64,000 nucleotides of DNA from an uncultured bacterium. GTDB lineage: Bacteria; Myxococcota_A; CAZTSL01. Where the stretch lies: positions 3,929 through 67,928 of the forward strand of contig CAZTSL010000006.1 in NCBI GenBank assembly GCA_964616915.1, written 5' to 3'. Below the pieces are notes generated by a model that saw only the letters and a list, made by a program, of their open reading frames with translations, was not told the DNA's origin and did not search any database. Positions 2,436-22,478 of the stretch are shown piece by piece. Every line of letters starts with the position of its first letter. Positions within the stretch are counted from its first letter, which is position 1. A program made the translations under genes and the position numbers.

Positions 2436-3094
2436 GAGCGAGCGACATCCCCCCGCCACACGAACCCGATCACCGGGGGGAGAGGGGGAAGTGGAAAGGA
2501 GAGTACGTGGAGAAGATCACGATCGATGACATCAAGGATCTCACGACCTACGAGATCGAGCGCCCCGAGTTCCGAAAGGAGATCATCGCGCTCAAGAAGA
2601 TACGCCGCGTCCCCCTCGGTGACCGGGTCTCCCTCGTCTTCGAGAACCGGAAAACGGTCCTCTTCCAGATTCAGGAGATGCTCCGCGCCGAACGGATCGT
2701 CCTCCCCGAAAAGGTCCAGGAAGAGATCGACGTGTACAACGAACTGATCCCTCCCCCAAACCACTTGAGCGCCACCCTCTTCATCGAGATCCGGGAACAG
2801 GCCAGGATCAAGGAGTACCTCGACGCCTTCCTCGGCCTCGATCAGGGGGAACGGATCTACTTCGAAATCGATGGGGCGACGCGCAGTGCCGCTCGCTTCG
2901 AGGCGGGGCGCAGCAAGGAGGACCGCATCAGCGCCGTCCACTACCTCCAGTTCCCCTTCGAAGGCGTGGTCCGGGAGAAATTCCTCGACCCCTCCCTCCC
3001 TGCCCACCTCGTCCTCGATCACCCGAACTACCAGGCGCGCACCGGGATCTCCCCCGCGCTGCGCCGGAGCCTGATCGAGGACCTCACCCTCTGA
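2432..3094 (+). CDS. DUF3501-family protein
   Basis: Internal ATG at 2432 overlaps the upstream TGA by ATGA, indicating translational coupling. The body matches the DUF3501 pattern (ITIDDIKDL..YE..RPEFRKEIIALKK.RRV.LG..VSLVFEN..TVLFQIQEM). This family is commonly linked to rubrerythrin and CCG proteins. Confidence 0.6.
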   Translation: MRASDIPPPHEPDHRGERGKWKGEYVEKITIDDIKDLTTYEIERPEFRKEIIALKKIRRVPLGDRVSLVFENRKTVLFQIQEMLRAERIVLPEKVQEEIDVYNELIPPPNHLSATLFIEIREQARIKEYLDAFLGLDQGERIYFEIDGATRSAARFEAGRSKEDRISAVHYLQFPFEGVVREKFLDPSLPAHLVLDHPNYQARTGISPALRRSLIEDLTL

Positions 3095-3178
3095 TTCGCG
3101 CTGCGGAATCCTCCGGGGGAGGGGGACGTTCCGGACTCCCGCGCTGCACGACACCCCTGCCTCGGCGATCGCACCGGC

Positions 3179-5413
3179 TCAGAAGATGTCGTAGGAAATA
3201 CGTAGCAGGAGGTTCTGCTCCACGGAGAGGGGATCCTCCGGGGAGTTGATCTCCGGATCCCGGATGAAACGGGTGATATAGTTGAGGGCGGCATAACGCC
3301 CGAGCCGCAGGCCGATCGAGTTCTGCCAGGTGTACCGCGGGGAGGAGAGTTCGTCGAAGGGGACGAGGATGTCGAAGTCGGTGGAAGCCAACACCCAGCG
3401 GGAGAAGCGAAGCGTCCCCACCACCGCCCCCTCGATCCCTTCGATGAGGTTGTCCCCGCTCGGCCGGATCTCGACGATGTCACGCTCCTGCCCCGTCTTC
3501 GGATCCTGCACCGTCGTCTCGTTGAAGGTGAAGAAGTCGTAGGTGAGCAACTGCCGGGAGCCGACCCCGAAACGGGTGTTCAAGTCCGCATACGTCTTCT
3601 TGAGGAGCGTGAGATTGATCCCAGCCCCCTCCTTCAACGCCAGGAGGGAGAAGGCATTGGCCAGTTGCACCTCCTGGCCGGGGGGGAGGATCTCATCGAC
3701 GACGAAGGTGCCGGGCGCCGTTTCGCTCTCGACGAGGATGTGCGCCTCCTTCTCGAAGGTCCGCGTCGTGGGGAGGAGATTCGTGTCGATCCCGAAGCGG
3801 ACGTAGGGGCCGAAGGCCGGAACGTACCGGTAGATGTAGATCGAATCGAGGTCGAGGCTGTCGAAGTCCTTCGAGAAGCGGTCATCGCTCTGGCTGCGGG
3901 TCTGCCCCTCCTCGATCTCCATCCGGGTATAGAAGTAGTGCTCGTCGCGGGTGTAGGTCGTGATCGTGTCGAGGAAGAGGGAGAAGGAGATCTCCGTGCC
4001 CGATTGCCGGGCCGTGGTCGTGCCTGCGACGTTGTCGAGACTCTCGAGGGAGAGGTCCCCCCCCAACGTCATGCTGATCTTCCAGTTCCCGAGGCGGGAC
4101 ATGTCGATGTCGGGCTCGAAGACACCGGCACCGAGGAAGTTCTCCGTCTCGGGGTCGAGGACGAGGACGAAGTTCGTCAGGACCCCCGCCTTGAGTTCGA
4201 CGGTGGCGAAGTTCTTCCGGGCCCGGTAGTTCTCCCCGACCCGGATCAACTTGTAGAGGCCCGGTTTGAGGATCCATGTCTGGAGCTGTTCCCCGGTCTC
4301 CTCATCGACGCCGAAGCCGACGCCGACGACCTCCCGGGTCGGCATGTAGATCAGCTCATAACTGCCCCGGAAGGCGACGTTCTGCTCATCGACGACGCGC
4401 ACGACGAGCCCTGCCCAGACCGGCTTCACGATCGAGGTCTCCCCCTCGCGGACCTCGACGTTCTCTCGGATCCGAACGGTGTCGATCCCGGAGCCGAAAC
4501 GAATCTCGTACTTCCCGGGATCGAGGATGACCCGGGTGCCGGTCTGGGTCGATATCTTCTCTCCCTTCTCGGGGAGGATCTCCACGAGGGGTTCGCGCAA
4601 CGGTTCGGTCATCGCGGGGATGAAGATCGCACCCTTGCCGGTGGGGATCTGCTTCGTATCGAGGGCGAGTTGTTCGTCGATCGGAGGAGAGAGCCAGCTC
4701 GACTCGAAGGTCTCCCCCCTTTCGTGCTCCGCTTCCACCGTCTCGATGATCGATGCGATCTGGTCCTCCACCTTCGGTGGAACCGGAAGCTGGTCCGCCG
4801 TAGGCTCCACCCCCGCCTCTTCCGAGAGGTGTTCGTCGAAGACGACGATCATCCGGGTGATCTCCTCGAAGAGGATCTCGCTCAACTTCTGTACGATCAC
4901 CGACGGGGACTGTACCTTGACCGGTTCCTTCCGGTCGAAGGTGTAGGAGGCCACGACCGCGCCGTCCCGCTCCCGGATCAGGGAGAAGTTCATCGCCAGA
5001 TGCGCGTACCACAGATCGATGCTGTCGAGTTCCTCGATGCTCACGAGTTCACTCGTGATCGTGTAGTCGGGAAGCTGCTCCTCCACCGTCGCGGAGACCC
5101 GCGCAAAGAGCCCCGTCTTACGCAGATGCTGAACGAGGAGGTCGGCGATCATCCGCTGCGGCTTCACCGCCCAGAGATGATAGTTGTAGTACTGGAGCTT
5201 GTGGAGCGAGAAGCGGTACACGATCGGGAGCCGGTCGTACGTCTGGCTGATGCGGGGCTCCTTGACCCGAAGGAAGATCGGAAACTTGGGGACCTGCGTC
5301 TCCAGCGGGGGAAGGGGGTACTGAAGCAGGTAGTAATTCTTCCCCCGCGGAGCGGAACAGGCAGAAAGAAGCAACATCCCAAGCAAAAGGAAAACGAGCG
5401 ATCGGTGGTTCAT
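3179..5413 (-). CDS. PqiC/YmbA-like (DUF330) ABC-transport auxiliary lipoprotein fused to a ~550 aa C-terminal domain of unknown function
   Basis: Signal peptide with lipobox (MNHRSLVFLLLGMLLLSAC). The N-terminal ~190 aa is PqiC-like (YYLLQYPLPP...LPIVYRFSLHKLQYYNYHLWAVKP). The remainder is rich in alternating aromatic/hydrophobic residues and ends ...RISYDIF. It lies 20 nt downstream of the MCE gene. Confidence 0.6.
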   Translation of the reverse strand: MNHRSLVFLLLGMLLLSACSAPRGKNYYLLQYPLPPLETQVPKFPIFLRVKEPRISQTYDRLPIVYRFSLHKLQYYNYHLWAVKPQRMIADLLVQHLRKTGLFARVSATVEEQLPDYTITSELVSIEELDSIDLWYAHLAMNFSLIRERDGAVVASYTFDRKEPVKVQSPSVIVQKLSEILFEEITRMIVVFDEHLSEEAGVEPTADQLPVPPKVEDQIASIIETVEAEHERGETFESSWLSPPIDEQLALDTKQIPTGKGAIFIPAMTEPLREPLVEILPEKGEKISTQTGTRVILDPGKYEIRFGSGIDTVRIRENVEVREGETSIVKPVWAGLVVRVVDEQNVAFRGSYELIYMPTREVVGVGFGVDEETGEQLQTWILKPGLYKLIRVGENYRARKNFATVELKAGVLTNFVLVLDPETENFLGAGVFEPDIDMSRLGNWKISMTLGGDLSLESLDNVAGTTTARQSGTEISFSLFLDTITTYTRDEHYFYTRMEIEEGQTRSQSDDRFSKDFDSLDLDSIYIYRYVPAFGPYVRFGIDTNLLPTTRTFEKEAHILVESETAPGTFVVDEILPPGQEVQLANAFSLLALKEGAGINLTLLKKTYADLNTRFGVGSRQLLTYDFFTFNETTVQDPKTGQERDIVEIRPSGDNLIEGIEGAVVGTLRFSRWVLASTDFDILVPFDELSSPRYTWQNSIGLRLGRYAALNYITRFIRDPEINSPEDPLSVEQNLLLRISYDIF

Positions 5414-5433
5414 CCATCCTCTCGATGCGGTGC

Positions 5434-6444
5434 TCATTGAAATTCCCGTTCCTCCTGCTCGATGTTGCGGAAGAGCGCGGAGGGGTTCTCGAGGAGAAAT
5501 CGACTGAAATCACGAAGATTCTCCGTCGTCTGGTTGAGTTGAAGGAGCGTGGCGTCGAGGTTCTCCTGGCCCCGGGCCACGGTGAGGTTCAAACGGTGAA
5601 GGAGCCGGGCCGTATCCTCGATCGCCCCTTTGAGCCGTTCGTTCCCGAGGAGTTCGCGGGCCGCTCCCATCGTCTCCGTGGCGTTCTCGAGGAGTTCGGT
5701 GAGCGCGGCCTGCTGTTTCGGAAGATCGGCGGTCACCCGATCGATGCCGGCGACGATCTTGTGAAGCGCCGCCCGGTTCTCCTCGACGAGTCGCTCCACC
5801 GACCGGAGGGTCGCCTCCGCGGCCTGGGACGTGTCGGCCAGCCCCCTTGCCACCTCCGTGACCACAGGACGGGTCTCAACGACGAGCGTTTCGATCTCCC
5901 CCATGATCCGATCGATGCGGGTGATGATCTCCTCGATCCGTTTCCCCTGGCTTCCGCCCGTGAGGTTGACGAGGTTTTCGAGGAGGTTTTCCGTCTTGAG
6001 CGCGATCGCGGTGGCACGGCCGCTCAGATCGGTCATGAGGGAGGGTTCCTCCGCGATCTCGCCGCCGGGGGGGAGGGGAGGGGCATCCTGGGAACTCTTC
6101 ACGAGATCGATATATTTGAGCCCCGTGATCCCCAGCGTCTCGACGACCGCCTTCGTGTCCGTCTTGATCGGGGTGCCCCGTTCCACACTGATATCGACGA
6201 TCACGCGCCCCACGTTCTCGGGATCGACGCGGATCCGCTCCACGCGGCCGACCTGGACGCCGCGATACTTCACGGCGGAGCCGGGTTCGAGGCCCGTGAC
6301 GGAAGCGGTGAGCGCGATCCAATAGTGATCCCGCTTCTCCACGAGCCGGCTGCCGCCGAGGATCGCCACGGCGACGAGAAAGATCGCGGCAGCGGTGCTC
6401 ACGAAGATGCCCAGACGAACCTTCTGCGTTCGGGTCAACGCCAT
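5434..6444 (-). CDS. MCE/MlaD-family protein (single MCE domain, N-terminal TM helix, long helical C-terminus)
   Basis: 336 aa from the internal ATG (MALTRTQKVRLGIFVSTAAAIFLVAVAILGG). The MCE core is ...YWIALTASVTGLEPGSAVKYRGVQVGRVERIRV.... The C-terminal half is heptad-like and helical. Confidence 0.75.
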   Translation of the reverse strand: MALTRTQKVRLGIFVSTAAAIFLVAVAILGGSRLVEKRDHYWIALTASVTGLEPGSAVKYRGVQVGRVERIRVDPENVGRVIVDISVERGTPIKTDTKAVVETLGITGLKYIDLVKSSQDAPPLPPGGEIAEEPSLMTDLSGRATAIALKTENLLENLVNLTGGSQGKRIEEIITRIDRIMGEIETLVVETRPVVTEVARGLADTSQAAEATLRSVERLVEENRAALHKIVAGIDRVTADLPKQQAALTELLENATETMGAARELLGNERLKGAIEDTARLLHRLNLTVARGQENLDATLLQLNQTTENLRDFSRFLLENPSALFRNIEQEEREFQ

Positions 6445-6671
6445 CGGTCTCCTTTCCTCCTTCTCTCCCTCATTGCGGGCAGCGTCCTTCACAGGACCCA
6501 CGAGCGCAGGCGATGGGGAAGAAATGTGGGTGTTGAGTGACGTGACAGGAGAAAACGTTGCGGTTTTCGAGGGGAGGGTTCACCCCTTCTCGCAGGAGAT
6601 GCGTATGACGCTCCCTTCCGGCGAACGTCGATGAGTGGGGAATCGGCGGAGCGGGTCATCCGTTTCCGGCG

Positions 6672-7238
6672 TCACGCTTCCTGATAGACCGTGAAGCCTG
6701 TGCGGACCCGTTCCCTTCCCCCCCCCTTCCAGACGAAGATCGCTACGGCGTCGTAGGGGGAGAGGGTGGGATCGACCACGATCGCGGAGCGGAAGGCCTG
6801 GGAGAAGAAGTGGGTATCGATGAAACGATCGTGGCTGGAGAGGAAGAGGCCGTAACCGGGGTGCGTATGCATCCATCCAAGGATCAACCGGTCGGGATAT
6901 TCCGTTTCGATCGTTCGATGGATCGCCTCCCATGCCTCATGGGTGAAGGTGAGCGCCGCGCGATCGGAGATGGCCCGCGTGGCCGGGATGAAGCCGTCCA
7001 TCGCGACGAACTCTCCCCTCTTCCCCCTTCCGTAGGTACCGACGACGACCCCCCCCCGTTCGTGGGTGAGATCGCCGTAGGCGTAGGCCACCATTTCGCT
7101 GAGCGCATCGGTGTGGAGGAAGACGCGCAGATCGGGACGCGCATCGGTACCCCGTGGAATGACGATCCACTCCGGATGCTCGTCGGGAGCGGGAGTCTCC
7201 TTCGGTACGACAACTTTCGGGCGGACGACGACTTTCAC
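6672..7238 (-). CDS. JAB/MPN+ (JAMM) metallopeptidase
   Basis: Complete JAMM motif: upstream Glu (THERGG) followed by HTHPGYGLFLSSHD (HxHx7Sx2D). Confidence 0.8.
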   Translation of the reverse strand: MKVVVRPKVVVPKETPAPDEHPEWIVIPRGTDARPDLRVFLHTDALSEMVAYAYGDLTHERGGVVVGTYGRGKRGEFVAMDGFIPATRAISDRAALTFTHEAWEAIHRTIETEYPDRLILGWMHTHPGYGLFLSSHDRFIDTHFFSQAFRSAIVVDPTLSPYDAVAIFVWKGGGRERVRTGFTVYQEA

Positions 7239-10749: not shown

Positions 10750-11564
10750 TGAGCGAGGTTTCGACGCTTCCGGCGGGAAATGGTCCCGATGTCGGTGAAG
10801 GGCGTGTTCCCCCCGCCAGGCGCGGGAGCGTGGCCGGACGCGTCGGGGGGGTGATCCTCCATTCCCTCCTCGCCTACGTCTTGTTGATGGGGATCAACGG
10901 GACCTGCGCCCTCCTCGTCGGGCTCCTTGGGTATGGTTCGTGGGACGCCCTCCGGATCGATGCACGTGTCACGAGTTTTTCCGCACCCGGGGTCGTAGCG
11001 GGACTCTGGGGGGCGTGTCTCGGCAATCTGTTCATCGTCGGGTGGCTCCTCCTTCGCAGTCGCCGGCGCAAAGAGCATCCCGCTCACCGGCTCGGGATCG
11101 GGCTGCCCCGTCGGCGGGCCTTCGTTGCGGCGCTCTTCCTCGTTCCGCTCGCCGGACATGGGGGGCAATGGCTGTTCCAGGTGCTCCTCCAGGCGCTGGG
11201 GTTTCATCCCCGTCCCCAGCTTCTGGCCAGACTCCTCGGTGAGGCGCCGATCGACGCGGCGTTCGCCCTGGCGGCCCTCTACATCTGCCTCCTGGGTCCG
11301 CTCCTCGAGGAGGTGATCTTCCGCGGTTTCCTCTATACGGGCCTGCGCCGCCGCTTCGGCGTCCTGCCGGCGCTGTTGGCCAGCAGTGTCGTCTTCGGGT
11401 ATACCCATGTCCTCGACCCCGACGCGGTCGTGCCGATCATCCTGCTGGGGGGGGTGCTCGGCGTTCTCTACGAGCGATCGGCGAACCTCTGGGTTCCGGT
11501 GGCCGGACATGTCGCGAACAATACCCTCGCGCTCCTCTGGCTCCTCCGCTCCCGGGGGGCGTAG
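10749..11564 (+). CDS. CPBP-family intramembrane metalloprotease (CAAX protease / Abi)
   Basis: Internal ATG (MSEVSTLPAG...) overlaps the ndh-fragment stop by 1 nt (TGATG). Multiple TM helices are present with the CPBP motifs EEVIFRG, FGYTH and HVANN. Confidence 0.75.
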   Translation: MSEVSTLPAGNGPDVGEGRVPPARRGSVAGRVGGVILHSLLAYVLLMGINGTCALLVGLLGYGSWDALRIDARVTSFSAPGVVAGLWGACLGNLFIVGWLLLRSRRRKEHPAHRLGIGLPRRRAFVAALFLVPLAGHGGQWLFQVLLQALGFHPRPQLLARLLGEAPIDAAFALAALYICLLGPLLEEVIFRGFLYTGLRRRFGVLPALLASSVVFGYTHVLDPDAVVPIILLGGVLGVLYERSANLWVPVAGHVANNTLALLWLLRSRGA

Positions 11565-11673
11565 CCTTGGCCTTCAGGTCCTGCTGGCATCGCCCGGAAA
11601 GAGGACGCAGGCTCTTTTCCACGACCGCATCGGTCCCGATCGCGGAGGGCGTCTCATCCACGATTTCGATCGA

Positions 11674-12966
11674 ATGAACCGAGAGGAGTCGCGTCCGACC
11701 ATGGCAGGAGACGAGTTGTTTTTCGAGGAATCGCAGCGGCATCGGGCATCGAGCATCGAGGAATTCGATGCCGAGATCAGAACCTTCGCCGGTTTCGGGA
11801 AGAAGACCCGCCTCCTGGAATTCACCGGCGGGGGGATCTCGATCCCGGTCTATGTCAACGAATTCTGGACCTCGAAACAGCGCGCGGCCCATTCGATCCA
11901 TGAGATCTCCTATCGCGCGTGTTTCAAGCCACAGTTGCCCCGCTTCTTCATCCACCGGCTGACCCGGCCGGGAGATGTCGTGTACGATCCCTTTCTGGGG
12001 CGAGGCACGACCGTGATCGAGGCGGCCTTGGCGGGGCGCCGTCCTCTTGGCTGTGATGTGAACCCCCTCAGCCGAATCCTGGTTCTCCCTCGACTCGATC
12101 CTCCCGAGGCGACGGAGGTGGCGAATCGTCTCGCAGGCCTCGATCTCGAAAGACCCGTCGAGGTTTGGGAGGACCTGCTGGTGTTCTATCATCCCAAGAC
12201 CCTTCGCCAGATCACCCATCTGCGTACGTATCTCCTTTCGCGGGAGGCGGAGGGGAGGCTCGATCGGGTGGATGCGTGGATTCGAATGGTTGCCACGAAC
12301 CGACTCACGGGACACTCCCGGGGGTTTTTCTCCGTCTACACCCTTCCTCCGAATCAGGCGGTGTCCATCGAGGCGCAACGAAGGATCAACGAGAAGCGCA
12401 ATCAGGTGCCCCCTGAGCGGGAGATCAAGCGGCTCATCCTGCGAAAGACACGATCTTTGCTCGCCCACCTCTCTGCCGCCGAGCGCAAGAGACTGCGGCG
12501 GATGGCCAGAGATGCTTCGATCGTGACCGGATCGGCCAACGATACGCCCGAAATCCCGAACGATTCCGTTCATCTTGCCGTCACCTCCCCCCCCTTCCTC
12601 GATACCGTGGACTATCGAACCGACAACTGGCTTCGATGCTGGTTCAATGGCATCGATGCCGAAGGCGTGCAGGTATGGCGGATCAAGGAGCCGGAAGCGT
12701 GGCAGGCCGCCATGGCCTCGACATTCCGGGAGCTTCGCCGTGTCCTCGTGGAGGGGGGAATCGTCGCCTTCGAGGTGGGAGAAGTGCGCAACGGAAAGAT
12801 CCTGCTCGAGACCCTCGTGGTTCCAGCCGCCATCGATGCCGGTCTTCAGCCACGAATGGTGCTGGTCAACGATCAGATCTTCACCAAGACCTCCAACTGC
12901 TGGGGCGTCGAGAACCTCAGGAAGGGGACGAACACGAACCGGATCGTCGTCGTCCAGAAGCGATGA
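11674..12966 (+). CDS. putative site-specific DNA methyltransferase (N6-adenine/N4-cytosine family), apparently orphan
   Basis: AdoMet motif I region GDVVYDPFLGRGTTVIEAALAGRRPLGCDVNP. Catalytic motif IV SVHLAVTSPPFLDTVDY lies about 180 aa later, giving order I then IV. The start was chosen at the internal ATG (MNREESRPTMAGD...) to avoid overlap with the CPBP gene. No nuclease-like neighbour was seen. Confidence 0.55.
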   Translation: MNREESRPTMAGDELFFEESQRHRASSIEEFDAEIRTFAGFGKKTRLLEFTGGGISIPVYVNEFWTSKQRAAHSIHEISYRACFKPQLPRFFIHRLTRPGDVVYDPFLGRGTTVIEAALAGRRPLGCDVNPLSRILVLPRLDPPEATEVANRLAGLDLERPVEVWEDLLVFYHPKTLRQITHLRTYLLSREAEGRLDRVDAWIRMVATNRLTGHSRGFFSVYTLPPNQAVSIEAQRRINEKRNQVPPEREIKRLILRKTRSLLAHLSAAERKRLRRMARDASIVTGSANDTPEIPNDSVHLAVTSPPFLDTVDYRTDNWLRCWFNGIDAEGVQVWRIKEPEAWQAAMASTFRELRRVLVEGGIVAFEVGEVRNGKILLETLVVPAAIDAGLQPRMVLVNDQIFTKTSNCWGVENLRKGTNTNRIVVVQKR

Positions 12967-14478: not shown

Positions 14479-16662
14479 TCAGTCCTTCCTTTCCTGGAGG
14501 ATGCGTTCCAGGGCGCCACGCCATACCCTTTCCACCCGATCGATCGGAAGATCGATCGCTCCCCCGATGGAGATGCGATCCCCTCCGACCCGTCCGATCG
14601 GATGACAAGGGATCCCTGCGCTCCGAAGCAGGGCGGCGACTTCATGATACGCCCCTTGCGTCGTCGTGGCAAGGAGGGTGGGGGGCCACTCCGAAAAGAG
14701 GAAGGTGGCGCGTTCGAGGCCGGGGGGAGGATCGACGCGGACCCCGATCGGCTCGGGCGCATCGAGCGCAGCGGCGACGATCGCCCGGGCGAGCCCGCCG
14801 GCGGTGACGAGCCGAAGACTTCGCAGGTGCCTGGAGAGGGAAAGGATCGCCGCAAGCCGGCGTCTCTCCTGCCCGAGATCGAGGGGCGGATCGGGCGAAG
14901 AAGGATGCTCCATCCCCCGGAATGTCTGGTAGGCCCAGCAGTATCCCGGTTGGGGTCTCCCGATCAGGAGGAGGATCTCCCCCGCCTCCCGGAATACGCA
15001 GTCGGGCGCTTCCCCCCGGACACCTCCGATCATTCCGACCACCGGGGTGGGGGGGATCGCAACCCCTCTGGTTTCGTTGTAGAAACTGACGTTGCCGCCG
15101 GTCACGGGGATTTCGAAGCGCTCGCACGCCTCGGCGATCCCCGAGACGACCTCCGCGAAGCGCCACATCACGTGGGGGTCTTCGGGGGACCCGAAGTTGA
15201 GGCCATCGGTGAGACCCAGCGGGCGTGCTCCCCGGCAGGCCAATCGGAGCGCAGCCCCGAGCACGGCCATCCGTCCGAGGGTTCGCGGCGAAATCGTGGG
15301 GAGGAGGGGAGGGACGTGAAGCACCACGGCGATCCGCTCCCCCGTCTCCGGAAGCCGCAGGAGGGGGGCCGGGCTCCCCCCCCCATCGATCGCCCGGAGC
15401 TGGACCCCATGGTCGAACTGCTCGTAGATCACGTTGCGGGCGGCAAGCTGCGGTGTCGCGAGGAAGGCCAGGAGGGTTCCCGCCGGATCATCGAGAGGAA
15501 TCGCGGGGAGGGAGCGCCGCGAAGGGGGAGGCGCGGGGGGCGCCCTTCGGGGACGATCGAGCCGCGGCGCATCCTCCCCCACGAAGGAGGCGGGGAGTTC
15601 GAGGACCCGCGCGCCTCCGAAGCGGACGGCCACCGAGACGCCCGGGGTCACCTCCCCGATCGGGACGCAGCAGAGGTCCCAGCGCTGGAAGTGCTCCGCG
15701 ATCCGCGGGACGGCGGCGGGATCTGCGGCGATCACCATCCGTTCCTGCGACTCGGAGAGGAGGATCTCCGTGGGGGAGAGGCCCCGTTGCCGGAGGGGAA
15801 CACGCGCAAGATCGACCGTGATCCCGGTGCCGGAGCGGTTCGCCATCTCGAAGAGGGCCGAAGCGAGCCCTGCGGCGCCGAGATCCTGCATCCCAGCCAC
15901 GAGACCCGCCTCGACGACCGCCAGTGTCGCCTCGATCAACCGTTTTCCGGCGAACGGGTCCCCCACCTGGACAGCGGGGCGCGCCCCCTCGGTCGCACCG
16001 GCGAATCCGCGGGAGGCCATCGTGGCGCCATGGAGACCGTCGCGGCCGGTGCGCGCGCCCACGTAGAGGATCACGTTGCCCACTCTTCCCGTGACGCCAC
16101 GTACGATCCGATCGGCCGGCAGGAGCCCCACGCAAAGAACGTTGACGAGGATGTTGCGGGCATAGCGCGCATCGAAGCAGGTCTTGCCCCCCACGGTGGG
16201 GACGCCGATCGCGTTGCCGTAGCCTCCGATGCCGGCAACGACGCGCTCGATGAGGTAGGTGCTCCGCTCGTGGCCCGGGGGGGCGAAGAAGAGGGCATCG
16301 AGGAGTGCGATCGGCCGCGCGCCCATCGCGAGGATATCCCGCACGATCCCCCCGACGCCGGTCGCCGCGCCCTGGTAGGGTTCGATGAAGGAGGGGTGAT
16401 TGTGGCTCTCGATCTTGAAGGCCAGCGCCCATCCCCCCCCGATGGCGACGATTCCGGCGTTCTCCCCGGGGCCTTCGAGGAGTGCTCCCCCCTTCCGGGG
16501 GAGTCGGGCGAGGATCGCTCGTGAACTCTTGTAGGCGCAGTGCTCGGAGAAGAGCGCCGAGAGGACCGTTGCTTCGACGGCATTGGGGTGCCGTCCGAGC
16601 CGCCGGACGACCGCGGCGTACTCCGTGGGGGACCATCCTGCCGGAATCCGAGGATCATGCAT
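14479..16662 (-). CDS. purL: phosphoribosylformylglycinamidine synthase subunit PurL
   Basis: 727 aa small-PurL type ([30 protein letters not shown]...). It lies between purQ and purF. Confidence 0.85.
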
Positions 16663-17455
16663 CGTGTCTTCTCAGGCCTTTTGCGTGGTTGTCGCCGGCT
16701 TTCTCGGGGGGATGGGGGAGCGGATCCGTTCGCGCTCCTTGGGGCACGGGATCTTCGGAGGGGAGGGAGCGACGGACACGGGCGAGGAAATCGCGGAAGA
16801 GGCGCGCACCGTCGAGGTTGCCGAGTTCCCGCTCCGCGCATCGCTCGGGATGCGGCATGATCCCGACGACGTTTCCTGCGGCGTTGCAGATGCCGGCGAT
16901 CCCCTCGGCCGAGCCGTTCGGGTTCGCCCGCGGATCGGGTTCGCCCGTGCGGTTCACGTAGCGAAGGACGATGTGCCCCTGTGCGTGGAGCCGGGCGAGG
17001 ATCGCGGGGGGGGCATGATAGTTGCCCCAGGCGTGGGCGATGGGGAGCCGAAGTCGCGTCCCCGCCGGCGCGGCATACCCGTCGAAGAGGGGACGCTCCA
17101 CCCGCACGAAGACATCCTTGCAGAGGAAGCGCCCCGACCGGTTCGGCAGGAGCACGCCGGGCAGGAGGCCCGCCTCGAGGAGGATCTGGAAGCCGTTGCA
17201 GATCCCCCAGACGACGCCCCCCTTCCCGGCAAAACGGGCAACCGCCCCCATCACGGGTGCCCGCGCCGCGATCGCACCGGGGCGCAGATAGTCTCCATGC
17301 GCGAAACCGCCGGGGAGGATCACCCCGGAGATCCCGTCGAGTGAGGTCGCCCGGTCGTCGAGGAAGACGCTCTCCACGCCGAAGACACGATCGAGGACGT
17401 GCGCGCAGTCCCGATCGCAATTCACGCCAGGAAAGACGATGATCCCGATCCTCAT
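16655..17455 (-). CDS. purQ: phosphoribosylformylglycinamidine synthase subunit PurQ (glutaminase)
   Basis: [16 protein letters not shown]...GICNGFQ...MPHPER, a class I GATase. The 3' end overlaps the purL start by 8 nt. Confidence 0.85.
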
Positions 17456-17754
17456 CCCACGGCTTCGATCGAAAGGGTAAAGGTCTCCATGACGGGGTTG
17501 ACGAGGAAGCTGCGACAGATCGCCTCGACACGCCGGCGCACTTGCGTGACCGATTCCCCCTGGAGGGTGAAGACGATCAGGCGTCCCACGGTGAGTTCCT
17601 CGACCGCTTCGAGGCCGGATTCGCGCAGAGCGCGACGTACCGTCTCCCCCTCGGGATGATGGAGGTCGGGGTGGGGGAGGATGCGCACTTCCACCCGCAG
17701 GGTCGGCTTTGCGGAAGGGGCGGGATCATTTTGGCTCGACGGCGATCTTTCCAT
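17452..17754 (-). CDS. purS: phosphoribosylformylglycinamidine synthase subunit PurS
   Basis: PurS core VEVRILPHPDLHHPEGETVRRAL...LIVFTLQGES...VEAICRSFLVNPVMETF. The start is uncertain: ATG at 17754 overlaps the upstream gene by 29 nt, and GTG at about 17694 is the alternative. Confidence 0.7.
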   Translation of the reverse strand: MERSPSSQNDPAPSAKPTLRVEVRILPHPDLHHPEGETVRRALRESGLEAVEELTVGRLIVFTLQGESVTQVRRRVEAICRSFLVNPVMETFTLSIEAVG

Positions 17755-18337
17755 CTGGCGTTCCCGGCGTTTCCTCGCGGGGCGTATCGGATTCCCCTTC
17801 CCCCAGGATCGAGAGGATCTCGTTCTGGAAGGCGTCGAGATGTTTCTGGGCCAGTTCCTGGCCGACGAGCGCACCCTTCTGCATCAGTTCCGGGAGTTGG
17901 TCGAGTGCCTTCTTTCCCGCGGGGGAGCGATAGAAACGAAGGATCTCCTGGAGTTCCGGTTCGGTGAACGCCTCCGTGTAGATCGAGATCATCCGTCCCT
18001 CGAGGTTCGGATCGTCCACGATCTTCTCTCCGAAGGCACGGGCCGCCCGTTTGATCTTCAGGACCTTCTCCGCGGGGATCTTCCCCGACATCTCCTCGAG
18101 GAAGGGGTCGAACATCGAGGCGAAGGCCGCAAGCATCGTATCGCGGGGTGCGAGCAGGTGATAGAGTTCCCCTGCGACCTTCCGATGCGAATCGGTCGCG
18201 GACGCCTTCCCCCCTTCGGGGGCAACGGCCTGGGTGTCGGCGGGGGCGCTGGGTGCCTGCTCTGGGGTATCGGCCCATCCGGTGCCGGCAAAGGTACAGG
18301 GGAACGCAAGCAACAAACCGAGGATCGTCTTCTTCAT
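17726..18337 (-). CDS. DUF2059-family secreted protein
   Basis: Internal ATG gives the signal peptide MKKTILGLLLAFPCTFA. The body matches DUF2059 (...MISIYTEAFTEPELQEILRFYRSPAGKK...). Confidence 0.55.
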   Translation of the reverse strand: MKKTILGLLLAFPCTFAGTGWADTPEQAPSAPADTQAVAPEGGKASATDSHRKVAGELYHLLAPRDTMLAAFASMFDPFLEEMSGKIPAEKVLKIKRAARAFGEKIVDDPNLEGRMISIYTEAFTEPELQEILRFYRSPAGKKALDQLPELMQKGALVGQELAQKHLDAFQNEILSILGEGESDTPREETPGTPDGKIAVEPK

Positions 18338-18535
18338 CAGTTTTTTCGCGCTTCCCCTCTCGAGGCCGGGGAGGAGAGCGCCGCCTCCTTTGGTTGGGGC
18401 TGTCGAGATCTCCAGGTCCGTCGTCCCACGCGAAGAGCGGGCAACGACGTGCATGGGGCCTTCCGCGACGCCGTGGGGTATCTGGATGTCGAAAGAGCGG
18501 TCCACGAAGTCTTGTTTCGAATCACCGTCGGACCT

Positions 18536-18877
18536 CTATGCGGGAGAGGAACCGGAGCGGTAGAAGCGGATCTCCACATTCTCGAGGGTGGCGAGTCCCT
18601 CCTCGATCGCCTCGTCGATCTGGGGGAGGAAGGCTTCGATCTTCTCTTCGGTATCCACGATCTCGATCACGATCGGCAGGTCGCTCGAGAGGCGGAGGAC
18701 CTTGGCCGTGTGCAACCGGCTGTGGGCGCCGAATCCTTCGATCCCTCGGAGGACGGTGGCGCCGGCGAGTCCCTCTTCCCGCGCCCGCTGGACGATCCAC
18801 TCGAAGAGGGGTTTCCCGCGGAACCTGTCGTTCTCTCCGATGAAGATTCGCAGCAACTTTCCCCGTTCCGGAAGGAC
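18536..18877 (-). CDS. DUF190 (PII/GlnB-like) protein, usually CrcB-associated
   Basis: LLRIFIGENDRFRGKPLFEWIVQRAREEGLAGATVLRGIEGFG. Upstream alternative starts (ATG 18922, TTG 18949) run into repeat copy A. No crcB is present in the window. Confidence 0.6.
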   Translation of the reverse strand, partial: VLPERGKLLRIFIGENDRFRGKPLFEWIVQRAREEGLAGATVLRGIEGFGAHSRLHTAKVLRLSSDLPIVIEIVDTEEKIEAFLPQIDEAIEEGLATLENVEIRFYRSGSSPA

Positions 18878-18921
18878 CATGCGCTTCTCCCCGCTCGATG
18901 CGAACTCGTGAACCGGGACCA

Positions 18922-19003
18922 TTGTTCCCCAACGAACGGAATGTGTCAAGACGGGATTTCTCCTTTGGCTCGTTTCACGAGTTCTTCGAGGATCCGGAAG
19001 GCT
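18922..19003. repeat. 82 bp imperfect direct repeat, copy A (about 90 % identical to copy B; duplicates the mutS 3' end including its stop codon)
   Basis: ttgttcccc..aacggaatgtgtcaagacgg...ctcctttggctcgtttcacgagttcttcgaggatccggaaggct. Confidence 0.85.
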
Positions 19004-19123
19004 GATTCCCTCTTGATTCCTTGTCTGCCGAGGTGATAAGATAAAGTTGTTCGTTTCAAGCGTCGTCGCGACGAACCGGGCATCCGGAGTGCCCTGGATG
19101 CACGCTCCCGGCCATCCTCGACC

Positions 19124-19339
19124 ATGAAGAAACCTGTTCTACACGCCAGGATCGACAAGGCTGAATTCTCGATATCCTCACTCGAGAGCGAGTCCGATGA
19201 AAAGTCCTATTGGCTTTCGAAAACGCCTCGAGAGCGCCTCGAAGCGATGGAACTGATGAGACAGATCAGTTATGGCTATGATCCAGCTCGTGCCCGACTT
19301 CAAAAATTTTTTGAAGTTGCTCCATTCCCACAGAGTTGA
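19124..19339 (+). CDS. small hypothetical protein (71 aa), possible partner/antitoxin of the downstream nucleotidyltransferase or the N-terminal part of a frameshifted gene
   Basis: MKKPVLHARIDKAEFSISSLESESDEKSYWLSKTPRERLEAMELMRQISYGYD.... It overlaps the next ORF by 68 nt in a different frame. Confidence 0.35.
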   Translation: MKKPVLHARIDKAEFSISSLESESDEKSYWLSKTPRERLEAMELMRQISYGYDPARARLQKFFEVAPFPQS

Positions 19340-19721
19340 ATATTTACTGATCGGTGGCTATGCAGTAGGTTACTACGGTTATCCACGATCAACGGGGGAT
19401 ATGGATATCTGGATATCCGTAAATCCAGAAAACGCAAAAAAAATGGTATCTGTTCTGGAACATTTTGGATTTTCGGTACCAAATCTATCGGCAGAATTGT
19501 TCCTCGAGGAAAATCGAGTGATCCGTATGGGAGTTCCACCGATAAGGATTGAAATCCTGACCACGATCTCAGGAGTCACATTTGAAGAATGTTATAGAGA
19601 ACGAGTTTCAGGTGAGATCGACGGGATCGAAGTAAATCTGATCAGCCTCGAGCACTTGAAGATGAACAAGAAAGCGAGCGGTAGGCATAAAGACCTGGAC
19701 GATTTGGAACATCTACCTTGA
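19272..19721 (+). CDS. minimal nucleotidyltransferase-fold protein (Pol-beta superfamily, MNT-like)
   Basis: hG[GS]..G...R.T.D.D motif in LLIGGYAVGYYGYPRSTGDMDIWIS. 149 aa, AT-rich codon usage. Confidence 0.55.
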   Translation: MAMIQLVPDFKNFLKLLHSHRVEYLLIGGYAVGYYGYPRSTGDMDIWISVNPENAKKMVSVLEHFGFSVPNLSAELFLEENRVIRMGVPPIRIEILTTISGVTFEECYRERVSGEIDGIEVNLISLEHLKMNKKASGRHKDLDDLEHLP

Positions 19722-19817
19722 GGAGGGGGCCGATGGAGGCCGAGGGGGAAAAGGCGCACGCCCTACGGGGGAAGGCGGAGGCGCCTCTTCTCGCCGTGGG
19801 TTTCCACGGCCGCGTCG

Positions 19818-19899
19818 TTGTTCCTCACCGAACGGAATGGGTCAAGACGGTGCTTCTCCTTTGGCGCGTTTCACGAGTTCTTCGAGGATGCGGAAGGCT
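19818..19899. repeat. 82 bp direct repeat, copy B (the functional 3' end of mutS)
   Basis: ttgttcctcaccgaacggaatgggtcaagacggtgcttctcctttggcgcgtttcacgagttcttcgaggatgcggaaggct. Confidence 0.85.
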
Positions 19900-22478
19900 T
19901 CGAGGGGGGAGAGGGTTTCGAGGTTCACGTTGCGGAGGGTCTCGGCGATGGGATCGTTCGCCGGGGCGAAGAGAGGGATCTGGCGGGGATCGACGGGACG
20001 GGGACGGGGGATGCGGCGGCGCTGCTTCCTGTCGATCTCGCTCGGCGAGGTCTTTGCGATGTTGGCCTCGATCTTCTCGAGATTCGCGAGGATCTCTCGC
20101 GCACGTTCGATGACGATGTCGGGGAGTCCCGCCAGCCGGGCGACCTCGATCCCGTAGCTGTGGGAGGTGGCACCCGGTGCGATCTTGCGGAGGAAGACGA
20201 TCCGGTCCCCCCACTCCTTGACCGTGACGTTGTAGTTGCGGATGCGCGGTTTGACCTCCTCGAGTTCGGCGAGTTCGTGGTAGTGGGTGGCAAAGAGGGT
20301 CTTTGCGCCGAGGGGGGCGTGGTCGTGGAGGTATTCCGCGACGGCCCAGGCGATCGAGACGCCGTCGAAGGTGCTCGTGCCGCGGCCGATCTCGTCGAGG
20401 AGGATGAGGCTTCTGCGGGTGGCGTTCTGGAGGATCCGGGCGGTCTCCTTCATCTCGACCATGAAGGTGCTCTCCCCCCGGGCGAGATGGTCGCCGGCGC
20501 CGATCCGGGTGAAGATCCGGTCGATGATGCCGATCCGGGCGCTGCGGGCGGGGACGAAGGCGCCGATCTGGGCCATGAGGACGATGAGGGCCACCTGGCG
20601 CATGTAGGTCGATTTTCCCGCCATGTTCGGACCGGTCAGGATGACGATCTGCTCGCGAAGATCGAGGTGCGTGTCGTTGGGCACGAAGCCCTCGCCAAGG
20701 TCGATCCGCTCCACCACGGGGTGGCGTCCCTCGGTGATGTCGAGCCGGTCGGAGGTGTCGATGCGGGGGCGGGTGTAGTCGTAGAGGCGGGCGATCGTGG
20801 CAAGGTTCGTCACGACGTCGAGGAGGGCGAGGGTATCGGCGGTCTGCTGGATCCGATCGATCGCCTCGCCGATCCTCTCCCGCACCTCGCAGAAGAGGGC
20901 GTACTCGAGTTCGTTGATCCGGTCCTCGGCGCCGAGCACCTTCTCCTCGTAGCTCTTGAGTTCGGGGGTGATGAAGCGCTCGCTGTTGGTGAGCGTCTGT
21001 TTGCGCTCGTAGCGTTCCGGCACGAGGTGGAGGTTGGGGCGGGTCACCTCGATGTAGTATCCGAAGACGCGATTGAAGCGGACCTTGAGGGAGGAGATCC
21101 CGGTCTTTTTTCGTTCCTCGAGTTCGAGGTTGGCGATCCACCCCTTCCCGTCGCGGCTGATCGAACGGAGTTCGTCGAGTTCGGCGTTGTATCCCTCGGC
21201 GATGATCCCCCCCTCCTTGAGGGTGGTGGGTGCCTCGGGCGCGATCGCCTCGCGGATCGTATCGACGAGATCCGAAAGGGGGTCGAGGGGCGCCTGGGCC
21301 AGGAGGGGGGGGAGGGGAGAGAGTTCGGCGAGGTATCCGATCAGGGTGGGGAGACGACCGGCCGAATCGGCCAGCGCAAGGAGATCACGGGGGGTGGCGT
21401 TGCCCAGCGCGATCCTGCCGGAGAGCCGTTCGAGGTCATGGACCCCTTTGAGCGCTTCGCGGACCTCCTCGCAGAGGAGATCGTTCTCCACGAAGGCGGC
21501 CACGGCGTCGAGGCGTTCCTCGATGCGCTCCGGATCGAGGAGGGGGTAGAGGAGCCACTGGCGCAGTTTCCTCCCCCCCATCGCGGTGACCGTCTCGTCG
21601 AGGACCCCGAGCAGCGACCCCTTGCGCTTGCGCTCCTCGCGGGTGCTGAAGATCTCGAGGTTACGCCGGGTCGATTCGTCGAGGTAGAGGTAGTCGTGGC
21701 TCTCGTAGGCGTGGGGGCGATGGAGGTGCGGGATGGCCCCCCGCTGATGTTCCCGCAGGTAGCCGAGGAGCCCCCCACAGGCCAGGAGGGCCGCCGGCTT
21801 GTCGGCAAGACCGGTCTCGTCGAGGGAGCGGAGGCGGAACTGCTCGATGAGGAGCGCTGCGCACGCATCGAGCGATGGTTCCGGGATCGTGGAGAAGCTG
21901 CACGGACCGATGAGTTCGACGATCCGCTCCTCGGAGAGGGGGGTGAAGCTGGCGGGACGCACGAGTTCCCGCGGCGCGATGCGCAACATCTCGCCGGCAA
22001 AGTGACTCACCCGGCCGGTCGTCGTCTTGAACTCCCCGGTGGAGAGATCGGCGAAGGCAATGCCGAACGTCTCCGGATCGTGGGGGTCGCTGACGGCGCA
22101 GGCGAGGAAGTTGTTCACGCGGGGGGAGAGTCCCTCCGTCTCGATGTAGGTCCCCGGTGTGACGACGCGGACCACCTCCCGCTCGAGGATCTTTCGTCCG
22201 CCACCTCCCGAATCGACCTGCTCGCAGATCGCGACCTTGTAGCCCGCCTCGATCAGGCGATGGATGTGAACCTGGGCGTTGTGGCAGGGAACGCCGCAGA
22301 AGGGGACATGCTCCTTCGATTTACGATTGCGCGTCGTCAGGGCGATGTCGAGGATGCGTGAGGCGATCTCGGCATCCTCGAAGAACATCTCGTAGAAGTC
22401 GCCCATCCGGAAGAAGAGGATCGCATCACGGTGTGCTTCCTTGATCGCGAGATATTGCCGCATGATTGGCGTGTCCAT
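19842..22478 (-). CDS. mutS: DNA mismatch repair protein MutS
   Basis: 878 aa, MDTPIMRQYLAIKEAHRDAILFFRMGDFYEMF..., with the Walker A motif GPNMAGKST. Confidence 0.95.
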   Translation of the reverse strand: MDTPIMRQYLAIKEAHRDAILFFRMGDFYEMFFEDAEIASRILDIALTTRNRKSKEHVPFCGVPCHNAQVHIHRLIEAGYKVAICEQVDSGGGGRKILEREVVRVVTPGTYIETEGLSPRVNNFLACAVSDPHDPETFGIAFADLSTGEFKTTTGRVSHFAGEMLRIAPRELVRPASFTPLSEERIVELIGPCSFSTIPEPSLDACAALLIEQFRLRSLDETGLADKPAALLACGGLLGYLREHQRGAIPHLHRPHAYESHDYLYLDESTRRNLEIFSTREERKRKGSLLGVLDETVTAMGGRKLRQWLLYPLLDPERIEERLDAVAAFVENDLLCEEVREALKGVHDLERLSGRIALGNATPRDLLALADSAGRLPTLIGYLAELSPLPPLLAQAPLDPLSDLVDTIREAIAPEAPTTLKEGGIIAEGYNAELDELRSISRDGKGWIANLELEERKKTGISSLKVRFNRVFGYYIEVTRPNLHLVPERYERKQTLTNSERFITPELKSYEEKVLGAEDRINELEYALFCEVRERIGEAIDRIQQTADTLALLDVVTNLATIARLYDYTRPRIDTSDRLDITEGRHPVVERIDLGEGFVPNDTHLDLREQIVILTGPNMAGKSTYMRQVALIVLMAQIGAFVPARSARIGIIDRIFTRIGAGDHLARGESTFMVEMKETARILQNATRRSLILLDEIGRGTSTFDGVSIAWAVAEYLHDHAPLGAKTLFATHYHELAELEEVKPRIRNYNVTVKEWGDRIVFLRKIAPGATSHSYGIEVARLAGLPDIVIERAREILANLEKIEANIAKTSPSEIDRKQRRRIPRPRPVDPRQIPLFAPANDPIAETLRNVNLETLSPLEAFRILEELVKRAKGEAPS

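What the first reader, a model, noticed from the sequence alone, without database searches (positions are those of the whole stretch)
18922..19899. 814 bp islet inserted at the 3' end of mutS, bounded by 82 bp direct repeats that duplicate the mutS terminus
The last ~60 nt of mutS plus ~20 nt of downstream sequence (19818..19899, copy B) recur about 900 bp further on (18922..19003, copy A). The two copies are 74/82 identical, and copy A includes an in-frame copy of the mutS C-terminal codons (...AFRILEELVKRAKGE-PS-stop). The intervening 814 bp has no counterpart elsewhere in the window. It contains a stretch of roughly 40 % GC (19280-19700) inside a genome of about 67 % GC, and carries only two small overlapping ORFs. 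Insertion into the 3' end of a conserved gene with duplication of that 3' end is the classic footprint of site-specific integrative elements. Here there is no integrase, so this may be a decayed remnant or a miniature element mobilised in trans. Copy A also supplies the alternative upstream start codons of the neighbouring DUF190 gene.
Basis: seen in the sequence. Interest (0 to 1): 0.7.

Follow-up and report, generated by a model that had tools for sequence, protein, structure and literature searches.

The report
Toxin-antitoxin-like cassette inserted behind mutS
An 814-base foreign piece carrying a small two-gene, toxin-antitoxin-like module is inserted exactly at the junction between the DNA-repair gene mutS and its neighbour. 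The 82 bases of that junction are duplicated on both sides, a footprint known as "insertion with long target duplication" that until now was described for restriction-modification genes.

Summary
An 82-nt direct repeat (18922-19003 and 19818-19899, 74/82 identical) brackets an 814-bp islet whose core falls to 43% GC in a 63% GC window. Two further assemblies span both repeat copies, so it is not an assembly artefact.

The two ORFs are a conserved, overlapping gene pair: a 71-aa protein plus a 149-aa minimal nucleotidyltransferase with a MenT1-toxin-like fold. There are more than 5000 homologues across phyla, and the small gene lies upstream in nearly all 80 loci fetched.

Elsewhere this pair sits in integron attC arrays. 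In at least five unrelated contigs it is flanked by locus-specific 50-93 nt imperfect repeats, mostly duplicated 3' ends of host genes. A control gave 1 hit in 444 windows, and that hit also brackets toxin-antitoxin pairs.

No integrase, transposase, tRNA, terminal inverted repeats, attC-like fold or conserved element ends were found.

The best fit is "insertion with long target duplication", known for restriction-modification units and of unknown mechanism. The decayed-integrative-element reading is only partly supported. No empty site could be found, because the nearest MutS is about 55% identical.

Verdict: new member of a known kind, of moderate interest.

The parts
18922..19003 (.). Direct repeat copy A. 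On the minus strand it is a displaced copy of the last 19 mutS codons plus stop plus the 23-nt spacer, ending at the A of the DUF190 ATG.
   Evidence: It is 74/82 identical to copy B. The coding part reads AFRILEELVKRAKGEIPS*.
19818..19899 (.). Direct repeat copy B. It is the functional 3' end of mutS (19842-19899) plus 24 nt downstream of the stop.
19004..19817 (+). Inserted islet of 814 bp. It is 50.1% GC overall against 63.0% for the window.
   Evidence: Homology to other cassettes covers only 19186-19725. No terminal inverted repeats.
19004..19123 (+). 5' leader of the islet, 57.5% GC, presumed to carry the cassette promoter. Only weak sigma-70-like hexamers are present (TTGATT 19013-19018, TAAGAT 19037-19042), and they did not pass the scan.
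   Evidence: No homologue in other loci. The equivalent position in L094 carries TTGACA-16-TATAAT.
19124..19339 (+). ORF1, 71 aa, the conserved small partner gene and candidate antitoxin. Its last 68 nt overlap ORF2 out of frame.
   Evidence: No Pfam, NCBIfam or PADLOC hit. A homologue lies directly upstream of the nucleotidyltransferase, with the same overlap, in nearly all of the 80 metagenome loci.
19272..19721 (+). ORF2, 149 aa, a minimal nucleotidyltransferase (DUF2204/DUF6036) and candidate MenT-like toxin. It is 43.3% GC.
   Evidence: Pfam. More than 5000 homologues at about 70% identity, mostly 146-151 aa. Every invariant column of the family alignment is kept. Model pLDDT 86. Best PDB folds are TM1012 and the MenT1 toxin, TM 0.66-0.68. 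A sequence profile hits 8an4 at E = 1e-3.
19722..19817 (+). 3' tail of the islet, 74% GC, of unknown origin. It has two hairpins when read on the minus strand, immediately downstream of mutS.
   Evidence: (minus strand z = -2.0). No canonical terminator was found.
19842..22478 (-). mutS, 878 aa, intact with domains I-V. It is the target gene whose 3' end is duplicated.
   Evidence: Nearest homologues are about 55% identical.
18536..18922 (-). DUF190 gene, 128 aa from the ATG at 18922. It is the downstream neighbour and was originally 23 nt after the mutS stop.
   Evidence: (E = 3.9e-43).
18921..18949 (-). Promoter-like TTGACA-17-AACAAT inside copy A, overlapping the duplicated mutS stop codon. 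Copy B reads TTGACC...AACAAC.
   Evidence: 10 of 12 matches. Function is inferred only.

Best explanation
The islet is a self-contained two-gene addiction-type cassette: an own leader, a 71-aa partner gene and a 149-aa MenT1-like minimal nucleotidyltransferase. It was acquired horizontally and inserted at the tight mutS-stop/23-nt/DUF190-start junction by 'insertion with long target duplication'.

Shown: the 82 nt spanning the last 19 mutS codons, the stop and the spacer are present on both sides of the insert. As a result mutS keeps a complete 3' end (copy B) and DUF190 keeps its native upstream sequence (copy A).

Inferred: no element-encoded or neighbouring recombinase is involved. Host break-repair or replication joined the foreign DNA at two strand breaks, or two template-switch points, 82 nt apart. 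The interval between them was therefore copied on both sides. The two copies have since diverged to 90% identity.

Also inferred: the pair acts as a toxin-antitoxin module. The nucleotidyltransferase would be the toxin, modifying tRNA acceptor ends as MenT does, and the small upstream protein would neutralise it. Loss of the islet by recombination between the 82-nt repeats would then be counter-selected, which would explain its persistence.
For: Repeat anatomy and sharp boundaries.

Foreign composition: the lowest-GC stretch of the 64-kb window.

Real in three assemblies, including a variant with 4 SNPs.

The cargo is an intact, conserved, overlapping gene pair with a MenT1/TM1012-like fold.

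No integrase or transposase among the genes examined from about 8 to 32 kb, which are housekeeping genes plus a DNA-methylase homologue. No tRNA in the window. No terminal inverted repeats. The repeat does not fold like an attC site (z > 0, against z of -2.8 to -4.9 for true attC sites in L139). No conserved element ends between loci.

The footprint recurs. The same cassette is flanked by locus-specific 50-93 nt repeats at 88-95% identity, in four of five cases duplicated 3' ends of host genes, in L094, L134, L148, L158 and L160, with islets of 768-1172 bp. The background rate is 1 in 444 pseudo-cassettes. That single hit (L036) brackets vapBC-like and yefM/yoeB-like pairs at an aminotransferase/ApbE junction, and a relative (L165) shows the uninterrupted junction.

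The class is published for restriction-modification units: repeats above 30 bp, variable in length, often spanning a start or stop codon, low-GC inserts, no mobility genes (PMC2853133).
Against: No empty site exists for this lineage. The nearest MutS is about 55% identical, and none of 80 distant mutS loci has DUF190 downstream. Insertion polarity at this locus is therefore inferred, not shown.

The molecular mechanism of long target duplication is unknown, even in the literature.

The repeat copies differ at 8 of 82 positions. Across five loci, 12 of 25 differing nucleotides in coding repeats are synonymous. This equally fits an alternative in which one copy arrived with the insert from a diverged relative.

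Only about 5 of the roughly 58 non-array loci with usable flanks show such repeats.

Toxin-antitoxin function is untested, and ORF1 matches no known family.
Confidence: 0.6

Rival explanations
1. Campbell-type integration. A small circular DNA carried the cassette plus a diverged copy of the mutS 3' end and spacer, captured earlier from a related strain. It recombined once with the chromosomal mutS end, by RecA or another homology-dependent route. This gave two hybrid repeat copies that were already about 10% different at birth.
For: The repeats are imperfect in every example found, at 88-95% identity, with none perfect among the long ones. Differences in coding parts are enriched for synonymous changes, 12 of 25 nt, as expected if both copies once served as real gene ends. 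Identical runs of 23-36 nt exist that could support a crossover. Direct repeats of this kind could also excise the cassette as a circle.
Against: It does not explain how the cassette first acquires a different host gene end at each new locus. In L094 the copy attached to the helicase does not restore the reading frame end, because the stop comes from islet sequence. The synonymous excess is also expected if one copy stays under selection and the other drifts. No donor or circular form has been observed.
Confidence: 0.15
2. The repeats are the attL/attR pair of a site-specific integrative element that targets the mutS 3' end and supplies a replacement end, as e14 and phage 21 do at icd. The element is now either reduced by internal deletion to its addiction module, or it is a miniature element mobilised in trans by an integrase encoded elsewhere.
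For: Duplication of a conserved gene's 3' end with a few mostly silent differences is the known footprint of such elements (established knowledge, not tested here). The gene stays intact. Toxin-antitoxin modules are typical survivors of decayed elements. The same cassette is mobilised in trans by integron integrases in other genomes (L139, L145, L097).
Against: No integrase among the genes examined from about 8 to 32 kb. The repeats differ at every locus that carries the cassette, and the islets mostly share the same roughly 0.8-kb size. No conserved sequence lies outside the ORFs. The duplication extends 23 nt past the stop, exactly to the next gene's start, which a replacement 3' end does not require. 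There is no attC-like fold.
Confidence: 0.15
3. Local origin. An 82-bp tandem duplication of the mutS/DUF190 junction arose first, or the arrangement is ancient. Unrelated DNA later landed between the copies.
For: It cannot be excluded without relatives. The GC-rich 96-nt tail (74% GC) is not obviously foreign.
Against: It requires two independent rare events at the same nucleotide. The same repeat-insert-repeat structure recurs around this and other toxin-antitoxin cassettes far above background, 1 in 444.
Confidence: 0.05
4. Assembly artefact joining strain variants.
For: The source is a metagenome-assembled genome. One public assembly has this region as a contig of only 1249 bp.
Against: Three assemblies span both junctions, including an independent Logan assembly that is 100% identical over 4.56 kb. 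The repeats share at most 23 identical bases, too few to confuse an assembler.
Confidence: 0.02

Closest known systems
Insertion with long target duplication of restriction-modification units (Nobusato et al. 2000, Gene 259:99; Furuta, Abe and Kobayashi 2010, PMC2853133)
   Same: A small addiction-type gene unit with no mobility genes. It is flanked by direct repeats longer than 30 bp that are unique in the genome and variable in length between loci. The repeats are often imperfect and often span a translation stop or start, so the flanking genes stay intact. The insert GC is lower than the genome's.
   Different: The cargo is a nucleotidyltransferase gene pair, not a restriction-modification system, so the double-strand-break activity of restriction enzymes proposed as the common cause cannot apply. 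No empty-site genome is available for this locus.
MenAT (MenA/MenT) and AbiE-type nucleotidyltransferase toxin-antitoxin systems; structures 8an4 and 8an5 (MenT1, MenAT1 complex)
   Same: A small upstream gene plus a minimal nucleotidyltransferase. The predicted fold matches MenT1 at TM 0.66-0.68. A profile hits 8an4 at E = 1e-3.
   Different: Sequence identity is only about 20%. Pfam places it in DUF2204/DUF6036, not AbiEii. ORF1 has no detectable relation to known antitoxins. The genes overlap by 62-68 nt out of frame. Toxicity has not been tested.
Integron gene cassettes carrying toxin-antitoxin operons
   Same: The same gene pair, with its own upstream leader, is a cassette between canonical attC sites (GTCCAAC...GTTGGAC, strongly folding) in L139, L145 and L097.
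   Different: The window islet has no attC. Its flanking repeats are host coding sequence and do not fold.
e14 and phage 21 integration into the 3' end of icd (site-specific elements that carry a replacement gene end)
   Same: Duplication of the 3' end of a conserved housekeeping gene with a few mainly silent differences, leaving the gene intact.
   Different: There is no integrase and the insert is only 814 bp. The repeat continues past the stop to the next start codon. The same cargo occurs with unrelated repeats at other loci.

Membership tests
Insertion with long target duplication (Furuta 2010 criteria) | Insert flanked by direct repeats longer than 30 bp | tested here: met
   82 nt, 74/82 identical.
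Insertion with long target duplication (Furuta 2010 criteria) | The repeat sequence occurs once at an empty site in a related genome | not testable with these tools
   No relative closer than about 55% MutS identity. No mutS-DUF190 adjacency in 80 distant loci. The criterion is met for the analogous toxin-antitoxin islet L036, using L165 as the empty site.
Insertion with long target duplication (Furuta 2010 criteria) | No integrase, transposase or other mobility gene in or next to the insert, and insert shorter than 20 kb | tested here: met
   The 814-bp islet holds only the two ORFs. The neighbours examined are purL/purQ/purS, DUF2059, DUF190, mutS, a TPR protein, HIT, rpsA and cmk. No tRNA in the window.
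Insertion with long target duplication (Furuta 2010 criteria) | The repeat is not a high-copy genomic repeat | tested here: met
   Only two copies in 64 kb. The rest of the genome was not available.
Insertion with long target duplication (Furuta 2010 criteria) | Cargo is a restriction-modification system | tested here: not met
   The cargo is a nucleotidyltransferase pair. This was a criterion of that survey, not of the footprint itself.
Site-specific integrative element (attL/attR of a tyrosine or serine recombinase) | A recombinase gene in the element or nearby | tested here: not met
Site-specific integrative element (attL/attR of a tyrosine or serine recombinase) | The same attachment sequence wherever the element is found | tested here: not met
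   Flanking repeats differ completely between the window, L094, L134, L148, L158 and L160. There is no conserved sequence outside the ORFs.
Integron gene cassette | A 3' attC site with R''/R' boxes (RYYYAAC...GTTRRRY) and a stable single-strand hairpin | tested here: not met
   There is no such site in 19722-19899. The repeats fold no better than shuffles. True attC sites next to the same cassette in L139 fold with z of -2.8 to -4.9.
DDE transposon or MITE | Terminal inverted repeats and a short (under 15 bp) target duplication | tested here: not met
   No inverted repeat joins the islet ends. The duplication is 82 nt.
MenT/AbiEii-type nucleotidyltransferase toxin-antitoxin system | Minimal nucleotidyltransferase fold with the G-x-x...D-x-D catalytic motif | tested here: met
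   GGYAVGY...DMDIW is kept. Fold match to MenT1 and TM1012.
MenT/AbiEii-type nucleotidyltransferase toxin-antitoxin system | Toxicity of the transferase and neutralisation by the adjacent gene product | not testable with these tools
   An experiment is needed. The only support is conserved pairing and occurrence as integron and array cassettes.
MenT/AbiEii-type nucleotidyltransferase toxin-antitoxin system | Sequence membership in the AbiEii/DUF1814 family | tested here: not met
   Pfam gives DUF2204 (just above its cut-off) and DUF6036 (below its cut-off). There is no NCBIfam or PADLOC model.

The most novel reading that the evidence does not exclude
Toxin-antitoxin-type cassettes in general, not only restriction-modification units, may enter chromosomes by a recombinase-independent route that duplicates 50-350 nt of the target, preferentially at gene ends or junctions. 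Repeated events at one site would build integrase-less cassette arrays. L036 and L158 would be two-cassette stages of this, and L159 a four-cassette array separated by about 340-nt repeats. The mutS islet would be a single-event example. Because the cargo here has no nuclease, the route would have to be host-driven, through staggered breaks or replication template switching.
Probability: 0.3. Interest if true: 0.7.

Novelty: new member of a known kind. Interest (0 to 1): 0.45.

Why it matters
How toxin-antitoxin modules move and integrate is stated to be unresolved (Fraikin et al. 2020, PMC7167474).

This locus, together with the parallel cases found here, links an uncharacterised but very widespread nucleotidyltransferase gene pair to a defined insertion footprint. 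That footprint was previously documented for restriction-modification systems. The cargo here has no DNA-cleaving activity, so the published idea that the restriction enzyme's breaks drive the insertion cannot be general.

The footprint gives concrete, testable predictions. It predicts what empty-site alleles should look like. It predicts whether the repeat copies are hybrids. It also predicts that circular excision products should exist.

For the host, the event shows how a compact mutS/DUF190 junction can accept foreign DNA without damaging either gene.

Tried and rejected
Empty-site search. Exact-protein look-ups for the window's MutS and the 149-aa ORF found nothing. The DUF190 look-up found only the same Logan contig. 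The 5.8-billion-protein search confirmed there is no relative above about 56%. No DUF190 lies next to mutS in 80 distant loci.

attC or integron origin of the window repeats: rejected.

Transposon ends: rejected.

Conserved islet ends or a shared attachment sequence: rejected.

Further copies of the repeat or of the islet flanks in the window: none.

Microhomology at the two novel junctions: none seen by eye.

Phage vehicles: none. Plasmid homologues reach only 49% identity or less.

NCBIfam and PADLOC gave nothing for either ORF.

Literature. There are no papers on DUF6036, and one irrelevant paper on DUF2204. Pandey and Gerdes 2005 is not held in the library. General toxin-antitoxin searches gave no description of this footprint for such modules.

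Synonymous versus non-synonymous counts could not separate 'identical duplication then drift' from 'diverged copies at birth'.

Look-ups of identical nucleotidyltransferases on many contigs (P0177, P0128) returned only the same genomic context, so they gave no recent second insertion site.

Full report
OBSERVATION. The window carries an ungapped 82-nt direct repeat, 18922-19003 (copy A) and 19818-19899 (copy B), with 74/82 positions identical. Similarity falls to chance level immediately outside both ends. It is the only long non-genic direct repeat in the 64 kb; the others are internal S1-domain repeats of rpsA. No third copy exists.

mutS lies on the minus strand (19842-22478, 878 aa, all five MutS domains). 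Copy B is its last 19 codons, the stop codon and 24 nt beyond. Copy A reads AFRILEELVKRAKGEIPS-stop in frame (copy B...GEAPS-stop), followed by the same spacer. It ends at the A of the ATG of a DUF190 gene (18536-18922).

The 814 nt between the copies are 50.1% GC, against 63.0% for the window. The nucleotidyltransferase ORF is 43.3% GC, which makes it the lowest-GC stretch of the window. The last 96 nt are 74% GC.

NOT AN ARTEFACT. An independent Logan assembly of run SRR7905022 (L081) is identical to window 15832-20390. An NCBI MAG contig (L082, GCA_003694725.1) matches 18906-20154 with four SNPs, all inside the islet. Both span both repeat copies. The copies share at most 23 consecutive identical bases.

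CARGO. ORF2 (19272-19721, 149 aa) is a minimal nucleotidyltransferase (DUF2204/DUF6036). It has more than 5000 homologues, the best 120 of which are 68-75% identical and mostly 146-151 aa. The named ones come from Chloroflexi, large sulfur bacteria, Poribacteria, Armatimonadetes and others. Every invariant column of the family alignment is kept in the window protein. An AlphaFold model (pLDDT 86) is closest to TM1012 and to the Mycobacterium tuberculosis MenT1 toxin and MenAT1 complex (TM 0.66-0.68). A sequence profile also reaches MenT1 (8an4, E = 1e-3).

ORF1 (19124-19339, 71 aa) matches no Pfam, NCBIfam or PADLOC model. However, a homologue lies directly upstream of the nucleotidyltransferase, with the same 50-65 nt out-of-frame overlap, in nearly all of the 80 metagenome loci retrieved with the nucleotidyltransferase.

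The islet therefore carries an intact, conserved two-gene module. Its architecture, distribution and fold are those of a toxin-antitoxin pair. That function is inferred, not shown.

SURROUNDINGS. The genes examined from about 8 to 32 kb are housekeeping genes (purL, purQ, purS, DUF2059, DUF190, mutS, a TPR protein, HIT, rpsA, cmk), plus a DNA-methylase homologue, an MMPL transporter, a beta-lactamase-fold protein and one ORF with no hit. None is an integrase or transposase. The window has no tRNA gene. The islet has no terminal inverted repeats. The repeats fold no better than shuffled sequence.

COMPARATIVE EVIDENCE. Nucleotide homology between the islet and the other cassettes is limited to 19186-19725, that is, to the two ORFs. 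The leader and tail are unique.

In L139, L145 and L097 the cassette lies between canonical integron attC sites (GTCCAAC...GTTGGAC, about 115 nt, roughly 870-nt period). These sites fold with z of -2.8 to -4.9.

In other contigs the cassette is flanked by locus-specific imperfect direct repeats, in four of five cases duplicated host-gene 3' ends:
- L094: 71 nt at 91.5%. The repeat lies near the 3' end of a DinG-like helicase gene, which now stops in islet sequence. The islet is 837 bp and starts with TTGACA-16-TATAAT.
- L148: 93 nt at 93.5%, ending 2 nt past a stop codon.
- L134: 50 nt at 88%, a coding end.
- L160: 50 nt at 90%.
- L158: the end of a 746-aa gene plus a 75-nt intergenic element, with a higBA-like pair also inside.
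Islet sizes are 768-837 bp, with one of 1172 bp.

As a control, 444 pseudo-cassettes placed in 80 unrelated mutS loci gave one flanking direct repeat of at least 40 nt. That one (L036) brackets a vapBC-like pair and a yefM/yoeB-like pair. Its repeats duplicate the last 42 nt of an aminotransferase gene plus the start of the adjacent ApbE-like gene. A relative with 80% protein identity (L165) has the two genes 12 nt apart with no insert.

The repeat-insert-repeat footprint at gene junctions is thus recurrent around addiction-type cassettes, and it is far above background.

WHAT IT IS. The anatomy matches the published class 'insertion with long target duplication'. That class consists of small restriction-modification units without mobility genes. 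Their flanking direct repeats exceed 30 bp and vary in length. [quoted passage not shown] The inserts have lower GC than the genome (Furuta et al. 2010, PMC2853133). The founding paper, Nobusato et al. 2000, was seen only as a citation.

The mechanism of that class is unknown. The authors suggested a property common to restriction systems, such as double-strand breakage. The cargo here has no nuclease domain, so a host-driven route is the more economical inference. Candidate routes are joining of foreign DNA at breaks staggered by 82 nt, or replication template switching that returns 82 nt behind the point of departure.

The duplication preserves both mutS and the native upstream region of DUF190. 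Copy A contains a TTGACA-17-AACAAT promoter-like site overlapping the duplicated stop codon. An addictive cargo would counter-select loss by recombination between the repeats. Both of these points are inference.

RIVALS. A Campbell-type single crossover with a circle carrying a diverged copy of the junction would also give this structure. It would explain why every long repeat pair seen is 88-95% rather than 100% identical, and why 12 of 25 differing nucleotides in coding repeats are synonymous. The same excess is expected, however, if one copy stays under selection while the other drifts. This model also does not explain first arrival at a new gene.

The repeats are locus-specific. No ends are conserved. 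The islets are uniformly tiny. No recombinase is nearby.

A pre-existing tandem duplication requires two coincident rare events. An assembly artefact is excluded for practical purposes.

LIMITS. No empty site exists for this lineage. The nearest MutS among 5.8 billion proteins is about 55% identical, and DUF190 is not next to mutS in distant relatives. Only about 5 of the roughly 58 non-array loci with usable flanks show flanking repeats. The toxin-antitoxin function is untested.

VERDICT. The islet is best described as a MenT-like nucleotidyltransferase toxin-antitoxin-type cassette inserted at the mutS/DUF190 junction with an 82-nt target duplication. It is a new member (new cargo type) of a known but mechanistically unexplained kind of insertion. 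It bears on the acknowledged open question of how toxin-antitoxin modules integrate (PMC7167474). Interest is moderate.

Noticed in passing
L159:2491-7307: An array of four toxin-antitoxin-type cassettes: hicAB-like at 2831-3258, ORF1-nucleotidyltransferase at 3796-4435, MNT/HEPN-like at 4986-5614 and a brnTA-like pair at 6232-6802. They are separated by five copies of a repeat unit of about 340 nt (60-97% identical), on a 181-kb contig. The repeats are much longer than attC sites. The array could have been built by serial long target duplications, or it could be a new kind of cassette array.
   Followed up: partly
L036:1749-3977, with L164 and L165: A vapBC-like pair and a yefM/yoeB-like pair lie between duplicated copies of an aminotransferase-3'-end/ApbE-5'-end junction. 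L165 shows the empty junction, with a 12-nt gap. The 95%-identical relative L164 has the same vapBC but different sequence after it, which suggests cassette turnover at this site.
   Followed up: partly
L139:2079-4821, L145:87-2874, L097:1551-2336: The same ORF1-nucleotidyltransferase pair is a gene cassette in integron-type attC arrays (R'' GTCCAAC, R' GTTGGAC, strongly folding single strands).
   Followed up: yes
window 19272-19339, and nearly all of L084-L163: ORF1 and the nucleotidyltransferase gene overlap by 50-68 nt in different frames, and both reading frames are conserved across phyla. In the window the overlap holds a perfect 10+10 palindrome, ACTTCAAAAA/TTTTTGAAGT (19297-19317), which is not conserved in L094.
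   Followed up: partly
window 18921-18949 (minus strand): A promoter-like TTGACA-17-AACAAT overlaps the duplicated mutS stop codon just upstream of DUF190. The corresponding bases of copy B are weaker (TTGACC...AACAAC).
   Followed up: no
window 19842-22478 (whole window lineage): The window's MutS has no relative above about 56% identity among 5.8 billion proteins apart from itself. NCBI labels a public MAG holding this locus (GCA_003694725.1) 'Deltaproteobacteria bacterium'. The lineage appears to be very sparsely sampled.
   Followed up: partly
window 11386-12966 (+): A 526-aa ORF with an N6/N4 DNA methylase domain lies about 6 kb from the islet. No partner restriction gene was looked for.
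   Followed up: no
L036:1791-1929; L164:5312-5348 and 5494-5530: A hairpin-rich element of about 140 nt is inserted between the aminotransferase stop and the duplicated ApbE start, bounded by GTTTCTAAA. Partial copies occur elsewhere in the related contig. It looks like a miniature repeat element.
   Followed up: no
L158:2755-4617: Nested duplications. The 3' end of a 746-aa surface-protein-like gene and a 75-nt palindromic intergenic element both recur downstream of the nucleotidyltransferase cassette. A RelE/HTH (higBA-like) pair sits between the first copies.
   Followed up: partly
window 19722-19817: The 96-nt tail of the islet is 74% GC, far above both the cassette and the genome, and has no match in the window or in the other loci. 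Its origin is unexplained. On the minus strand it forms two hairpins directly after mutS.
   Followed up: partly
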